Sequence record: OM418626.1
From: Escherichia phage Lambda imm434
DNA length: 47,326 bases
Direction: 5' to 3' (one strand)
The notes below the pieces were generated by a model. The model saw nothing but the letters and a program-made list of their open reading frames with translations, searched no databases and was not told the origin of the DNA. Of the stretch, positions 24,509-27,738 are shown one piece after another; the first letter of the stretch is position 1; each line of letters starts with the position of its first letter. Position numbers and translations under genes: made by a program.

Positions 24509-25399
24509 CTAGATCCCTCTGAAAAAATCTTCCGAGTTTGCTAGGCACTGATACATAACTCTTTTCCAATAATTGGGGAAGTCATTCAAATCTATAATAG
24601 GTTTCAGATTTGCTTCAATAAATTCTGACTGTAGCTGCTGAAACGTTGCGGTTGAACTATATTTCCTTATAACTTTTACGAAAGAGTTTCTTTGAGTAAT
24701 CACTTCACTCAAGTGCTTCCCTGCCTCCAAACGATACCTGTTAGCAATATTTAATAGCTTGAAATGATGAAGAGCTCTGTGTTTGTCTTCCTGCCTCCAG
24801 TTCGCCGGGCATTCAACATAAAAACTGATAGCACCCGGAGTTCCGGAAACGAAATTTGCATATACCCATTGCTCACGAAAAAAAATGTCCTTGTCGATAT
24901 AGGGATGAATCGCTTGGTGTACCTCATCTACTGCGAAAACTTGACCTTTCTCTCCCATATTGCAGTCGCGGCACGATGGAACTAAATTAATAGGCATCAC
25001 CGAAAATTCAGGATAATGTGCAATAGGAAGAAAATGATCTATATTTTTTGTCTGTCCTATATCACCACAAAATGGACATTTTTCACCTGATGAAACAAGC
25101 ATGTCATCGTAATATGTTCTAGCGGGTTTGTTTTTATCTCGGAGATTATTTTCATAAAGCTTTTCTAATTTAACCTTTGTCAGGTTACCAACTACTAAGG
25201 TTGTAGGCTCAAGAGGGTGTGTCCTGTCGTAGGTAAATAACTGACCTGTCGAGCTTAATATTCTATATTGTTGTTCTTTCTGCAAAAAAGTGGGGAAGTG
25301 AGTAATGAAATTATTTCTAACATTTATCTGCATCATACCTTCCGAGCATTTATTAAGCATTTCGCTATAAGTTCTCGCTGGAAGAGGTAGTTTTTTCAT
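24509..25399 (-). CDS. ea31: Ea31, HNH-type endonuclease-like protein
   Basis: ORF 24509..25399 (296 aa); motif CPFCGDIGQTKNIDHFLPIAHYPEFSVMPINLVPSCRDCN; start overlaps ea59 stop (ATGA). Confidence 0.85.
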   Translation of the reverse strand: MKKLPLPARTYSEMLNKCSEGMMQINVRNNFITHFPTFLQKEQQYRILSSTGQLFTYDRTHPLEPTTLVVGNLTKVKLEKLYENNLRDKNKPARTYYDDMLVSSGEKCPFCGDIGQTKNIDHFLPIAHYPEFSVMPINLVPSCRDCNMGEKGQVFAVDEVHQAIHPYIDKDIFFREQWVYANFVSGTPGAISFYVECPANWRQEDKHRALHHFKLLNIANRYRLEAGKHLSEVITQRNSFVKVIRKYSSTATFQQLQSEFIEANLKPIIDLNDFPNYWKRVMYQCLANSEDFFRGI

Positions 25400-26973
25400 T
25401 GTACTTTACCTTCATCTCTGTTCATTATCATCGCTTTTAAAACGGTTCGACCTTCTAATCCTATCTGACCATTATAATTTTTTAGAATGGTTTCATAAGA
25501 AAGCTCTGAATCAACGGACTGCGATAATAAGTGGTGGTATCCAGAATTTGTCACTTCAAGTAAAAACACCTCACGAGTTAAAACACCTAAGTTCTCACCG
25601 AATGTCTCAATATCCGGACGGATAATATTTATTGCTTCTCTTGACCGTAGGACTTTCCACACGCAGGATTTTGGAACCTCTTGCAGTACTACTGGGGAAT
25701 GAGTTGCAATTATTGCTACACCATTGCGTGCATCGAGTAAGTCGCTTAATGTTCGTAAAAAAGCAGAGAGCAAAGGTGGATGCAGATGAACCTCTGGTTC
25801 ATCGAATAAAACTAATGACTTTTCGCCAACGACATCTACTAATCTTGTGATAGTAAATAAAACAATTGCATGTCCAGAGCTCATTCGAAGCAGATATTTC
25901 TGGATATTGTCATAAAACAATTTAGTGAATTTATCATCGTCCACTTGAATCTGTGGTTCATTACGTCTTAACTCTTCATATTTAGAAATGAGGCTGATGA
26001 GTTCCATATTTGAAAAGTTTTCATCACTACTTAGTTTTTTGATAGCTTCAAGCCAGAGTTGTCTTTTTCTATCTACTCTCATACAACCAATAAATGCTGA
26101 AATGAATTCTAAGCGGAGATCGCCTAGTGATTTTAAACTATTGCTGGCAGCATTCTTGAGTCCAATATAAAAGTATTGTGTACCTTTTGCTGGGTCAGGT
26201 TGTTCTTTAGGAGGAGTAAAAGGATCAAATGCACTAAACGAAACTGAAACAAGCGATCGAAAATATCCCTTTGGGATTCTTGACTCGATAAGTCTATTAT
26301 TTTCAGAGAAAAAATATTCATTGTTTTCTGGGTTGGTGATTGCACCAATCATTCCATTCAAAATTGTTGTTTTACCACACCCATTCCGCCCGATAAAAGC
26401 ATGAATGTTCGTGCTGGGCATAGAATTAACCGTCACCTCAAAAGGTATAGTTAAATCACTGAATCCGGGAGCACTTTTTCTATTAAATGAAAAGTGGAAA
26501 TCTGACAATTCTGGCAAACCATTTAACACACGTGCGAACTGTCCATGAATTTCTGAAAGAGTTACCCCTCTAAGTAATGAGGTGTTAAGGACGCTTTCAT
26601 TTTCAATGTCGGCTAATCGATTTGGCCATACTACTAAATCCTGAATAGCTTTAAGAAGGTTATGTTTAAAACCATCGCTTAATTTGCTGAGATTAACATA
26701 GTAGTCAATGCTTTCACCTAAGGAAAAAAACATTTCAGGGAGTTGACTGAATTTTTTATCTATTAATGAATAAGTGCTTACTTCTTCTTTTTGACCTACA
26801 AAACCAATTTTAACATTTCCGATATCGCATTTTTCACCATGCTCATCAAAGACAGTAAGATAAAACATTGTAACAAAGGAATAGTCATTCCAACCATCTG
26901 CTCGTAGGAATGCCTTATTTTTTTCTACTGCAGGAATATACCCGCCTCTTTCAATAACACTAAACTCCAACAT
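25396..26973 (-). CDS. ea59: Ea59, ABC/OLD-type ATPase with about 190-aa N-terminal extension
   Basis: ORF 25396..26973 (525 aa); Walker A FIGRNGCGKTT, signature-like MSSGH, Walker B LVLFDEPEVHLHP, H-loop IATHSP. Confidence 0.85.
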   Translation of the reverse strand: MLEFSVIERGGYIPAVEKNKAFLRADGWNDYSFVTMFYLTVFDEHGEKCDIGNVKIGFVGQKEEVSTYSLIDKKFSQLPEMFFSLGESIDYYVNLSKLSDGFKHNLLKAIQDLVVWPNRLADIENESVLNTSLLRGVTLSEIHGQFARVLNGLPELSDFHFSFNRKSAPGFSDLTIPFEVTVNSMPSTNIHAFIGRNGCGKTTILNGMIGAITNPENNEYFFSENNRLIESRIPKGYFRSLVSVSFSAFDPFTPPKEQPDPAKGTQYFYIGLKNAASNSLKSLGDLRLEFISAFIGCMRVDRKRQLWLEAIKKLSSDENFSNMELISLISKYEELRRNEPQIQVDDDKFTKLFYDNIQKYLLRMSSGHAIVLFTITRLVDVVGEKSLVLFDEPEVHLHPPLLSAFLRTLSDLLDARNGVAIIATHSPVVLQEVPKSCVWKVLRSREAINIIRPDIETFGENLGVLTREVFLLEVTNSGYHHLLSQSVDSELSYETILKNYNGQIGLEGRTVLKAMIMNRDEGKVQ

Positions 26974-27543
26974 ATAGTAACCCTTAATTTTATTAAAATA
27001 ACCGCAATTTATTTGGCGGCAACACAGGATCTCTCTTTTAAGTTACTCTCTATTACATACGTTTTCCATCTAAAAATTAGTAGTATTGAACTTAACGGGG
27101 CATCGTATTGTAGTTTTCCATATTTAGCTTTCTGCTTCCTTTTGGATAACCCACTGTTATTCATGTTGCATGGTGCACTGTTTATACCAACGATATAGTC
27201 TATTAATGCATATATAGTATCGCCGAACGATTAGCTCTTCAGGCTTCTGAAGAAGCGTTTCAAGTACTAATAAGCCGATAGATAGCCACGGACTTCGTAG
27301 CCATTTTTCATAAGTGTTAACTTCCGCTCCTCGCTCATAACAGACATTCACTACAGTTATGGCGGAAAGGTATGCATGCTGGGTGTGGGGAAGTCGTGAA
27401 AGAAAAGAAGTCAGCTGCGTCGTTTGACATCACTGCTATCTTCTTACTGGTTATGCAGGTCGTAGTGGGTGGCACACAAAGCTTTGCACTGGATTGCGAG
27501 GCTTTGTGCTTCTCTGGAGTGCGACAGGTTTGATGACAAAAAA

Positions 27544-27723: not shown

Positions 27724-27738
27724 GCTTTTTTATACTAA
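27724..27738. other. attP: attP core (common core O of POP')
   Basis: Exact 15-bp core gcttttttatactaa about 75 bp from the int 3' end. Confidence 0.9.

What the first reader, a model, noticed from the sequence alone, without database searches (positions are those of the whole stretch)
24509..26973. Ea59-Ea31: ABC/OLD-type ATPase plus HNH nuclease pair with the architecture of a two-gene anti-phage defence module
Two co-oriented genes share a 4-bp ATGA stop/start overlap at 25396-25399, implying a co-translated operon. Ea59 (525 aa) has Walker A FIGRNGCGKTT, signature-like MSSGH, Walker B/D-loop LVLFDEPEVHLHP and H-loop IATHSP, preceded by a roughly 190-aa N-terminal domain of unknown function. 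Ea31 (296 aa) has an HNH-type motif with flanking CxxC pairs (CPFCGD...IDHF...NLVPSCRDCN). An ATPase of this class partnered with an HNH nuclease is the layout of Septu (PtuA/PtuB) and resembles other OLD-family defence systems. The genes sit in the dispensable, AT-rich b2 region, which fits an accessory payload that may exclude competing phages or target DNA. I cannot say whether this has already been tested experimentally.
Basis: partly seen in the sequence, partly recalled or inferred. Interest (0 to 1): 0.8.

Follow-up and report, generated by a model that had tools for sequence, protein, structure and literature searches.

The report
Lambda ea59-ea31: Septu-like ATPase-nuclease pair
Two long-known but functionally unassigned genes of phage lambda (ea59 and ea31) encode an ATPase and an HNH nuclease, and they belong to a widespread, mobile two-gene module related to the Septu anti-phage system, so lambda probably carries a weapon against rival phages whose role has not been tested.

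Summary
The window is phage lambda. ea59 (25396-26973, minus strand, 525 aa) and ea31 (24509-25399, minus strand, 296 aa) overlap by ATGA, and the quoted motifs are present and invariant among homologues. Defence-system profiles support the Septu reading. Ea59 matches PADLOC PDC-M01A (8e-202) and one PtuA model (8.8e-185) over its full length, and its predicted fold matches PtuA best. Ea31 matches PDC-M01B (5.8e-113) but resembles PtuB only in the HNH core (7e-9). The pair is a discrete 2.77-kb cassette (24336-27106) that is 93.5% identical to part of a Klebsiella integrative island. The ATPase-HNH order and the stop/start overlap hold in every related locus examined, and several loci lie beside other candidate conflict genes. 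The pair differs from structurally characterised Septu in three ways: a family-specific 185-aa N-terminal domain on the ATPase, a longer nuclease, and a reported ATP-dependent nuclease activity. The genes, their dispensability, their domain names and a 1982 lambda endonuclease are already known. I found no paper that links them to defence or tests it. Verdict: a real Septu-like member in a model phage, of moderate interest, with its biological role still inferred.

The parts
24336..27106 (-). Mobile cassette: 133-bp 5' leader, ea59, ea31 and 173 bp of 3' flank
   Evidence: blastn finds 93.5% nucleotide identity over window 27106..24336 with a Klebsiella integrative island (L014 8293-11064). 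Homology stops on both sides, and ea47 is not included.
25396..26973 (-). ea59 CDS, 525 aa: PtuA-like ABC ATPase
   Evidence: ORF. Pfam AAA_21 1.3e-16 and AAA_15 8e-13. PADLOC PDC-M01A 8e-202 and PtuA1|PtuA PDLC00282 8.8e-185, both full length. Foldseek top hits are PtuA.
26419..26973 (-). Ea59 N-terminal domain (res 1-185), beta-rich, family-specific, function unknown (candidate sensor or regulator)
   Evidence: No Pfam family even at E<=10. AF2 predicts strands 3-58 and 159-180 plus helices 89-150. There are 1421 50%-identity cluster representatives, and in nearly all of the 150 best hits listed the domain sits at the N-terminus; full-length hits are about 500-545 aa. Invariant residues include D26, W28, N29 and D30.
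26365..26397 (-). Walker A / P-loop FIGRNGCGKTT (res 193-203)
   Evidence: Sequence; G195-T203 invariant in 35 homologues.
25831..26127 (-). Helical insertion in the ATPase (res 283-381), including the signature-like MSSGH at 25870-25884
   Evidence: AF2 helices 283-381; S365, S366, G367 and H368 invariant.
25777..25815 (-). Walker B / D-loop LVLFDEPEVHLHP (res 387-399)
   Evidence: D391, E392, H396 and H398 invariant. The stretch aligns with the Walker B region of retron PtuA (LIDEIELHLHP).
25693..25710 (-). H-loop IATHSP (res 422-427)
   Evidence: A423-P427 invariant; aligned to IITTHSP of PtuA.
25414..25542 (-). Ea59 C-terminal helices (res 478-520), candidate docking site for the nuclease
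   Evidence: AF2 helices 478-520. The role is inferred by analogy with the PtuA C-terminal extension that clamps PtuB (PMC12819146) and was not tested here.
25396..25399 (-). ATGA stop/start overlap (translational coupling)
   Evidence: The stop of the ATPase gene overlaps the start of the HNH gene by 1, 4 or 7 bp in 14 of 14 related loci examined.
24509..25399 (-). ea31 CDS, 296 aa: HNH (His-Me finger) nuclease subunit
   Evidence: ORF. PADLOC PDC-M01B 5.8e-113. PHROG 10378 HNH endonuclease 4.9e-152. RefSeq names it 'HNH endonuclease'. Listed as 'ATP-dependent nuclease EA31' in PMC5714182.
24959..25078 (-). HNH core with two CxxC zinc pairs (res 108-147: CPFC...DH...N...CRDCN)
   Evidence: C108, C111, D121, H122, N138, C143, C146 and N147 invariant in 30 homologues. 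This 61-aa stretch alone hits PtuB1|PtuB PDLC00342 at 7e-9. The family profile's best PDB match is PtuB 22bv_F at E=0.023.
24539..24793 (-). Ea31 C-terminal helical bundle (res 203-287), candidate ATPase-binding domain
26974..27106 (-). Conserved 5' leader of the cassette, with RBS TAAGGG (26986-26981) and a weak promoter candidate TTGCCG(27022-27017)-16 nt-TATTTT(27000-26995)
   Evidence: The leader is conserved with Klebsiella and two viral contigs. The promoter candidate scores only 8/12 and the consensus scan did not call it, so it is speculative.

Best explanation
ea59-ea31 is a self-contained, horizontally mobile two-gene module of the Septu (PtuA/PtuB) kind. In my model Ea59 is a catalytically intact ABC-type ATPase that oligomerises and holds the Ea31 HNH nuclease, so that ATP binding or hydrolysis by Ea59 gates nucleic-acid cleavage by Ea31. 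The family-specific N-terminal domain of Ea59 is the most likely place where a trigger is sensed. Its biological role is most likely conflict between mobile elements: restriction or abortive exclusion of competing phages, either in lambda lysogens or in cells where lambda itself is replicating. Shown here: the gene anatomy, the conserved catalytic motifs, homology to PtuA/PDC-M01 models, strict pairing with translational coupling, the cassette's mobility, and its residence in integrative islands. Taken from the literature: lambda specifies an endonuclease, and Ea31 is an ATP-dependent nuclease. Inferred: complex formation through the C-terminal helices, the sensing role of the N-terminal domain, the substrate in vivo (DNA as in the 1982 enzyme, or tRNA as in Septu EcB88 and retron-Eco7), and the anti-phage phenotype.
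For: PADLOC: Ea59 hits PDC-M01A at 8e-202 and PtuA1|PtuA at 8.8e-185 over its full length; Ea31 hits PDC-M01B at 5.8e-113; the Ea31 HNH core hits PtuB1|PtuB at 7e-9. PDC-M01 calls coincide with Septu calls in Bacillus cereus genomes (PMC11811056). Foldseek of the Ea59 model (pLDDT 79) is dominated by PtuA chains among its best hits: retron-Eco7 3.4e-8 and E. coli Septu 8eea 3.1e-5. Sequence profiles against PDB give retron PtuA at 1e-6 for Ea59 and PtuB as the best hit for Ea31. All ATPase and HNH catalytic residues are invariant. The ATPase gene lies directly upstream of the HNH gene in all 23 related loci with room to see it. The stop/start overlap holds in 14 of 14 loci, and identities of the two proteins co-vary with rho=0.97. 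The cassette is 93.5% identical between lambda and a Klebsiella island. Its neighbours are typical of defence islands: integrases, AlpA, anti-restriction, CbeA, ScoMcrA-like HNH, a second AAA_15/21 pair, a CTD1-MComp1-SMC triad and a DUF87 ATPase. Both genes are dispensable for lambda growth. Septu requires both the Walker and the HNH motifs for defence (PMC13096335). The literature records a lambda endonuclease and 'ATP-dependent nuclease EA31'.
Against: No phage-restriction phenotype for lambda ea59-ea31 or any PDC-M01 member was found in the searchable literature. Ea31 resembles PtuB only in about 50 residues of HNH core; it has no NCBIfam TIGR02646 hit and no convincing fold match. Ea59 scores 49.7 bits against a cut-off of 500 for the retron PtuA equivalog, and TM-scores to PtuA are only about 0.3. 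In a prophage, attP (27724-27738) separates ea59 from pL, and no consensus promoter was found upstream of ea59. Expression in lysogens, which classical prophage-mediated defence needs, is therefore unproven. From textbook knowledge, the Ea proteins are early lytic proteins made from pL. The reported ATP dependence contrasts with the ATP inhibition of stand-alone E. coli Septu.
Confidence: 0.65

Rival explanations
1. It is a lytic-phase accessory nuclease that serves lambda's own development, for example by attacking host or competitor DNA or processing replication or recombination intermediates. It would be expressed only from N-antiterminated pL transcripts after infection or excision, and would not protect lysogens.
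For: ea59 lies downstream of int-xis-attP on the leftward strand. It is therefore co-transcribed with the pL operon only when the genome is circular. The consensus scan found no promoter between attP and ea59. 'Ea' denotes early proteins (textbook knowledge). [quoted passage not shown]
Against: The genes are dispensable for plaque formation. The same cassette, with its own 133-bp leader, sits in non-phage integrative islands in Klebsiella, E. coli, Vibrio, Shewanella and Vreelandella, where no pL-type operon reads into it. This argues for an autonomous function that is independent of the host element.
Confidence: 0.2
2. It is a selfish addiction or stabilisation module (toxin-antitoxin-like). 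The nuclease would be a toxin restrained by the ATPase, and the pair would mainly ensure retention of the element that carries it rather than defence.
For: The best Pfam match is AAA_21, described as 'putative AbiEii toxin, Type IV TA system'. Retron-associated PtuAB is the cytotoxic unit once released (PMC12819146). The pair is always inherited together with translational coupling. It lies on mobile islands beside other TA genes such as CbeA.
Against: b-region deletions and replacements of lambda are easily obtained and stable, and DE3 derivatives carry a truncated ea59 without ea31. No post-segregational effect has been reported. TA-like behaviour and abortive-infection defence are also not mutually exclusive.
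Confidence: 0.08
3. It is a member of another ABC-ATPase defence family (OLD, Gabija, PARIS or a type I-A retron effector) rather than Septu-like.
For: Ea59 gives partial hits to AriA (2.1e-17), to an OLD nuclease structure 6p74 (2e-5) and to a retron Eco8 effector model.
Against: These hits cover only the Walker B to H-loop segment. No Toprim or DUF4435 domain is present in either protein. The partner is an HNH protein. No reverse transcriptase ORF lies next to the pair (the neighbours are ea47 and int), and no Rfam family matches within the cassette or its flanks. The full-length matches are to PDC-M01A and PtuA.
Confidence: 0.04

Closest known systems
Stand-alone Septu (PtuA/PtuB), e.g. E. 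coli ATCC 25922 (PDB 8EE4/8EEA) and Septu EcB88
   Same: Both are two-gene ATPase-then-HNH operons. The ATPase is of the ABC/AAA_15/AAA_21 type with a helical insertion. The HNH partner has a C-terminal helical domain. PADLOC PtuA and PtuB models hit Ea59 and Ea31. The fold of Ea59 matches PtuA. In Septu both sets of motifs are needed for defence.
   Different: Ea59 has an extra 185-aa N-terminal domain: its Walker A lysine is K201, against K43 in EcB88. Ea31 is 296 aa, against about 215 aa for the solved retron-type/TIGR02646 PtuB chains, and matches PtuB only in the HNH core. The lambda enzyme is described as ATP-dependent, whereas ATP inhibits stand-alone PtuAB nicking and that PtuA lacks ATPase activity. 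No defence phenotype is known.
Type I-A retron effectors PtuAB (Ec78/Eco7, Ec83)
   Same: These are the best sequence and structure matches in the PDB for Ea59. Their PtuA also has an N-terminal extension and an active ATPase.
   Different: No reverse transcriptase, ncRNA or msDNA accompanies ea59-ea31. The NCBIfam PtuA equivalog scores 49.7 bits against a cut-off of 500. The N-terminal domain of Ea59 is longer and has no recognisable counterpart in any family library (no Pfam match).
PADLOC candidate system PDC-M01 (unpublished candidate in PADLOC-DB v2)
   Same: This is the family to which both proteins belong by full-length, very strong matches (8e-202 and 5.8e-113).
   Different: Nothing differs at the sequence level. 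However, PDC-M01 is only a computational candidate, described as unpublished and often co-called with Septu. I found no experimental validation.
Lambda-specified endonuclease of Benchimol, Lucko and Becker 1982 (J Biol Chem 257)
   Same: It is probably the same enzyme. [quoted passage not shown] Ea31 is listed as 'ATP-dependent nuclease EA31', and ea59 as 'ATP-dependent endonuclease'.
   Different: The paper is not held in the library. The assignment of the purified polypeptides to Ea59 and Ea31 therefore rests on my memory and on these secondary mentions. No biological role was assigned.
OLD-family systems (P2 Old, Gabija GajA, PARIS AriA/AriB)
   Same: They share a related ABC ATPase core coupled to a nuclease, and they are carried by phages and islands for inter-phage conflict.
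   Different: Their nuclease is Toprim or DUF4435, not HNH. Similarity to Ea59 is confined to the Walker B to H-loop segment.

Membership tests
Septu (PtuA/PtuB) | Two adjacent co-oriented genes, ATPase first and HNH nuclease second, inherited as a unit | tested here: met
   ATGA overlap. Same order in all 23 related loci with room to see it. Stop/start overlap in 14 of 14 loci and identity co-variation rho=0.97.
Septu (PtuA/PtuB) | PtuA: ABC-type AAA_15/AAA_21 ATPase with intact Walker A/B that matches PtuA profiles | tested here: met
   Pfam AAA_21 at 62 bits (cut-off 27) and AAA_15 at 49.2 bits (cut-off 32.1). PADLOC PtuA1|PtuA PDLC00282 at 8.8e-185 over residues 4-522. Motifs invariant. 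Foldseek best hits are PtuA chains.
Septu (PtuA/PtuB) | PtuB: HNH nuclease of the PtuB / TIGR02646 family | tested here: inconclusive
   The HNH core hits PtuB1|PtuB at 7e-9, and PtuB is the best PDB profile hit at E=0.023. However, there is no NCBIfam match, Pfam HNH scores 14.8 bits against a cut-off of 21.4, the full-length best hits are all PDC-M01B, and the fold searches are inconclusive. A seed search for PtuB homologues to build a profile-profile test failed.
Septu (PtuA/PtuB) | PtuA oligomer that clamps PtuB through the PtuA C-terminal extension and the PtuB C-terminal domain | not testable with these tools
   Only monomer predictions were possible. Both proteins end in confident helical segments, which is compatible with this feature but not diagnostic.
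Septu (PtuA/PtuB) | Confers resistance to phage, dependent on the Walker and HNH motifs | not testable with these tools
   No report found.
PADLOC PDC-M01 candidate | Both genes match PDC-M01A and PDC-M01B models and are adjacent | tested here: met
   8e-202 and 5.8e-113, both full length.
Type I-A retron (Septu type II) | Reverse transcriptase and ncRNA upstream of ptuA; PtuA equivalog NF041760 | tested here: not met
   No RT ORF near the pair. No Rfam family matches within the cassette or its flanks. NF041760 scores 49.7 bits against a cut-off of 500.
OLD / Gabija / PARIS | Toprim (or DUF4435) nuclease domain fused to or paired with the ABC ATPase | tested here: not met
   No Toprim or DUF4435 hit in Ea59 or Ea31. 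The partner is an HNH protein.

The most novel reading that the evidence does not exclude
The lambda pair is a Septu-type nuclease used in the opposite sense to the canonical one. A phage would deploy it from its own early (pL) operon during lytic growth, switch it on rather than off with ATP, and trigger it with single-stranded DNA sensed through the unique N-terminal domain of Ea59. It would then destroy co-infecting rivals or resident mobile elements. This would be an offensive or competitive use of a 'defence' system by the best-studied phage.
Probability: 0.2. Interest if true: 0.7.

Novelty: new member of a known kind. Interest (0 to 1): 0.45.

Why it matters
Lambda is the reference temperate phage, yet ea59 and ea31 have had no assigned biological role for about 40 years and are routinely deleted to make room in vectors. 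Placing them in the Septu/PDC-M01 family makes that old question directly testable, with simple plaque assays and motif mutants in the best genetic system available. It would also give the first tractable model for a very large, uncharacterised Septu-like subfamily: at least 1400 clusters at 50% identity share the Ea59-specific N-terminal domain. There is a practical side too. Wild-type lambda lysogens, b-region-deleted vectors and DE3 strains may differ in an active ATP-dependent nuclease, which could affect phage-host and phage-phage experiments.

Tried and rejected

2. I seeded a homologue search with a 53-aa PtuB fragment in order to build a PtuB profile for profile-profile comparison. It returned only four short fragments.

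3. I tried to read Benchimol et al. 1982 and two lambda reviews, but none is held in the library.

4. The name 'phage Hau3 resistance protein', given to a 54%-identical Ea59 homologue, could not be traced to a paper.

5. The consensus scan found no promoter or terminator at the cassette's ends. My hand-found promoter candidate scores only 8/12.

6. The tblastx comparison of viral loci with lambda was noisy. Only the longer matches (int, J, cro, O) are credible.

7. OLD, Gabija, PARIS and retron memberships were considered and rejected, for lack of a Toprim domain or a reverse transcriptase.

8. No repeats of note lie within the locus.

9. ea47 was considered as a possible third gene and rejected, because the cassette homology ends at 24336 and ea47 has no defence-model hit.
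Full report
**Observation.** The window is bacteriophage lambda in the coordinates of J02459/NC_001416, at 100% identity over 24300-27200. The ORF list gives ea59 at 25396..26973 (minus strand, 525 aa) and ea31 at 24509..25399 (minus strand, 296 aa). The minus-strand sequence shows the ATGA overlap at 25396-25399. The region is AT-rich, at 37-39% GC against 53-60% in the left arm. Both genes are dispensable: they were non-essential in a CRISPRi screen (PMC10695390) and are routinely replaced in engineered phages. An open frame of 525 codons at this composition has a chance probability of about 1e-16 (my calculation), and both proteins have many homologues.

**What the proteins are.**
- Ea59 passes Pfam's cut-offs for AAA_21 and AAA_15.
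- Against PADLOC-DB, Ea59 matches PDC-M01A (8e-202) and one model labelled PtuA1|PtuA (PDLC00282, 8.8e-185) from end to end. Matches to AriA, MADS3 and other PtuA models cover only the Walker B to H-loop part.
- In 35 homologues down to 52% identity, the Walker A (G195-T203), signature-like S365-H368, Walker B D391-E392, H398 and H-loop H425 residues are invariant. So are residues of the N-terminal domain such as D26, W28, N29 and D30.
- An AlphaFold2 model (pLDDT 79) shows four parts: a beta-rich N-terminal domain (about 1-185), the ATPase core with a long helical insertion (283-381), and C-terminal helices (478-520).
- The best Foldseek matches in the PDB are mostly PtuA chains. They come from type I-A retrons (3.4e-8) and from E. 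coli Septu (8eea, 3.1e-5). TM-scores are only about 0.3, as expected for a flexible multi-domain protein with an extra domain.
- Ea31 matches PDC-M01B (5.8e-113) and PHROG 10378 'HNH endonuclease'. C108, C111, D121, H122, N138, C143, C146 and N147 are invariant in 30 homologues.
- Ea31's relation to PtuB is limited to the HNH core. The 61-aa core hits PtuB1|PtuB at 7e-9, and a family profile finds PtuB as its best PDB match at E=0.023.
- Beyond the core the evidence is negative or weak: no NCBIfam hit, Pfam HNH below its cut-off, and fold searches that were not informative.

**A mobile, strictly paired module.**
- Ea31 homologues occur across Gammaproteobacteria.
- In every locus examined with room upstream, a 520-530-aa Ea59 homologue lies directly upstream (23 loci). 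These come from Vibrio, Shewanella, Vreelandella, E. coli and Klebsiella, plus viral contigs from the IMG/VR scan (9 of the 11 had upstream sequence and a full-length match).
- The ATPase stop overlaps the nuclease start by 1, 4 or 7 bp in 14 of 14 loci examined. The identities of the two proteins to lambda co-vary with rho=0.97.
- A Klebsiella integrative island shares 93.5% nucleotide identity with lambda exactly over 27106..24336. That span is 133 bp of leader, both genes and 173 bp of 3' flank, with homology ending on both sides and ea47 excluded. The pair is therefore a discrete cassette exchanged between a phage b region and a chromosomal island.
- The neighbours are those of defence or conflict islands. 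They include integrases, AlpA, RadC, anti-restriction, CbeA, ScoMcrA-like HNH, a second AAA_15/21 ATPase pair, a CTD1-MComp1-SMC triad and a DUF87 ATPase.
- In some viral contigs the pair lies near int or downstream of a J-like tail gene, as in lambda (noisy).
- The N-terminal domain of Ea59 has no Pfam family. It is found in 1421 cluster representatives at 50% identity. In nearly all of the 150 best hits listed it sits at the N-terminus, and the full-length hits are about 500-545 aa. The architecture is therefore stable and the family is large.

**What is already known.**
- RefSeq already names the genes 'AAA family ATPase' and 'HNH endonuclease'.
- A lambda-specified endonuclease was published in 1982 (Benchimol, Lucko, Becker). 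[quoted passage not shown]
- A classification of His-Me finger nucleases lists 'ATP-dependent nuclease EA31' (PMC5714182), and a CRISPRi table labels ea59 'ATP-dependent endonuclease'.
- I could not read the 1982 paper. That the purified enzyme consisted of the Ea59 and Ea31 polypeptides is my recollection, consistent with these mentions but not verified.
- PDC-M01 is an unpublished PADLOC candidate that is often co-called with Septu (PMC11811056).
- Searches for ea59 or ea31 together with defence, lysogen or Septu found no paper that proposes or tests an anti-phage role. No database name for these proteins mentions Septu.

**How it most likely works.**
- By homology with PtuAB, Ea59 should oligomerise through its ABC heads and helical insertion and hold Ea31 through C-terminal helices. 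In PtuAB a pair of PtuA C-terminal extensions sandwiches the helical C-terminal domain of PtuB (PMC12819146).
- In Septu, defence requires both the Walker motifs and the HNH motif (PMC13096335).
- Known substrates of the family are supercoiled DNA (nicking) and tRNA-Tyr.
- For the lambda enzyme the literature indicates ATP-dependent, single-strand-DNA-dependent DNA cleavage. This differs from the ATP-inhibited, ATPase-inactive stand-alone E. coli Septu and is closer to the ATPase-active retron PtuA.
- I infer that the N-terminal domain of Ea59 is the sensor or regulator, because it is the part that distinguishes this subfamily and it is conserved. This was not tested.

**Expression is the main uncertainty for the biological role.** attP (27724-27738) lies between int and ea59. 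In a prophage the pair is therefore cut off from pL. In a circular genome, N-antiterminated pL transcripts can read into it, and 'Ea' proteins are early lytic proteins (textbook knowledge). The consensus scan found no promoter upstream of ea59. However, the 133-bp leader travels with the cassette into islands that have no pL-like operon. Its proximal part, GTTATTTTAAT followed by a TAAGG ribosome-binding site, is conserved even in an 87%-identical relative. A weak promoter candidate (TTGCCG-16 nt-TATTTT, 8/12) can be placed there by eye, but it is speculative. Both a lysogen-protecting role and a lytic-phase competitive role therefore remain open.

**Comparison and membership.** The pair meets the Septu criteria of gene order, coupling and a PtuA-type ATPase. 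The PtuB criterion is inconclusive, since only the core is shared. Complex architecture and phenotype could not be tested. The pair fully meets the PDC-M01 candidate definition. It fails the type I-A retron criteria: no reverse transcriptase, no Rfam match within the cassette, and an NCBIfam PtuA score of 49.7 against 500. It also fails the OLD/Gabija/PARIS criterion, because it has no Toprim or DUF4435 domain. I therefore describe it as a Septu-like (PDC-M01-type) ATPase-HNH module rather than as canonical Septu.

**Verdict.** The genes, their dispensability, their domains and a nuclease activity are old knowledge, and the family is already catalogued computationally. What appears to be missing is the explicit link to Septu-type immunity and any test of it. 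Confidence is 0.65 that the module acts in inter-phage or mobile-element conflict through an ATP-gated HNH nuclease. It is about 0.9 that the pair is a PtuA-like ATPase plus HNH nuclease complex. Interest is moderate (0.45): not surprising to a defence-system specialist, but it turns a 40-year-old loose end of lambda biology into a simple experiment and offers a model for a large uncharacterised subfamily.

Noticed in passing
window 22686-23918 (-), ea47: The 410-aa protein encoded by the next gene downstream has no Pfam, NCBIfam or PADLOC family and only an 'unknown function' PHROG (19262). It lies outside the cassette shared with Klebsiella, so it is a separate orphan accessory gene of the b region.
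   Followed up: partly
window 22316-22514 (+): An Rfam family IS009 (a candidate small RNA) matches full length at 224 bits, inside the 3' part of the tail-fibre assembly gene tfa/orf-194.
   Followed up: no
window 24389-24390 and 24336: The GenBank record marks a misc_recomb site at 24389/24390, only about 50 bp from the 3' end of the cassette homology with Klebsiella (24336). I did not establish whether the two are related.
   Followed up: no
L010 2326-7076 (E. coli island next to the Ea59/Ea31 homologues): A three-gene set, CTD1 (PF20276), MComp1 (PF20289) and a 797-aa SMC_N/AAA_23 ATPase, sits about 3 kb upstream of the pair in an integrase/AlpA/RadC island. It looks like another conflict system.
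   Followed up: no
L014 1583-4647 and 19263-20891 (Klebsiella island): The island that carries the 93.5%-identical cassette also holds a second AAA_15/AAA_21 ATPase (717 aa) with a 302-aa partner, and ScoMcrA-like HNH genes. This suggests a defence-island setting.
   Followed up: no
P0202: A 54%-identical Ea59 homologue from Ectopseudomonas mendocina is named 'phage Hau3 resistance protein' by NCBI. If that name derives from an experiment, it would be direct evidence of anti-phage function for a relative. I could not trace it.
   Followed up: partly
phage DE3, BL21(DE3) genomes, phage O276: DE3 lysogens and some derivatives keep only about 1.0-1.3 kb of the cassette at its attP-proximal end (the 5' part of ea59 plus the upstream leader) and lack ea31. 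Common expression strains therefore lack a functional pair, while K-12 lambda lysogens have it.
   Followed up: no
Sequences identical to lambda ea59/ea31 are deposited under unrelated organisms. Examples are 'Campylobacter phage CJLB-4' and partial proteins from Mycobacterium tuberculosis, Streptococcus pneumoniae, Listeria and Paenibacillus. These are most likely lambda control-DNA contamination of assemblies.
   Followed up: no
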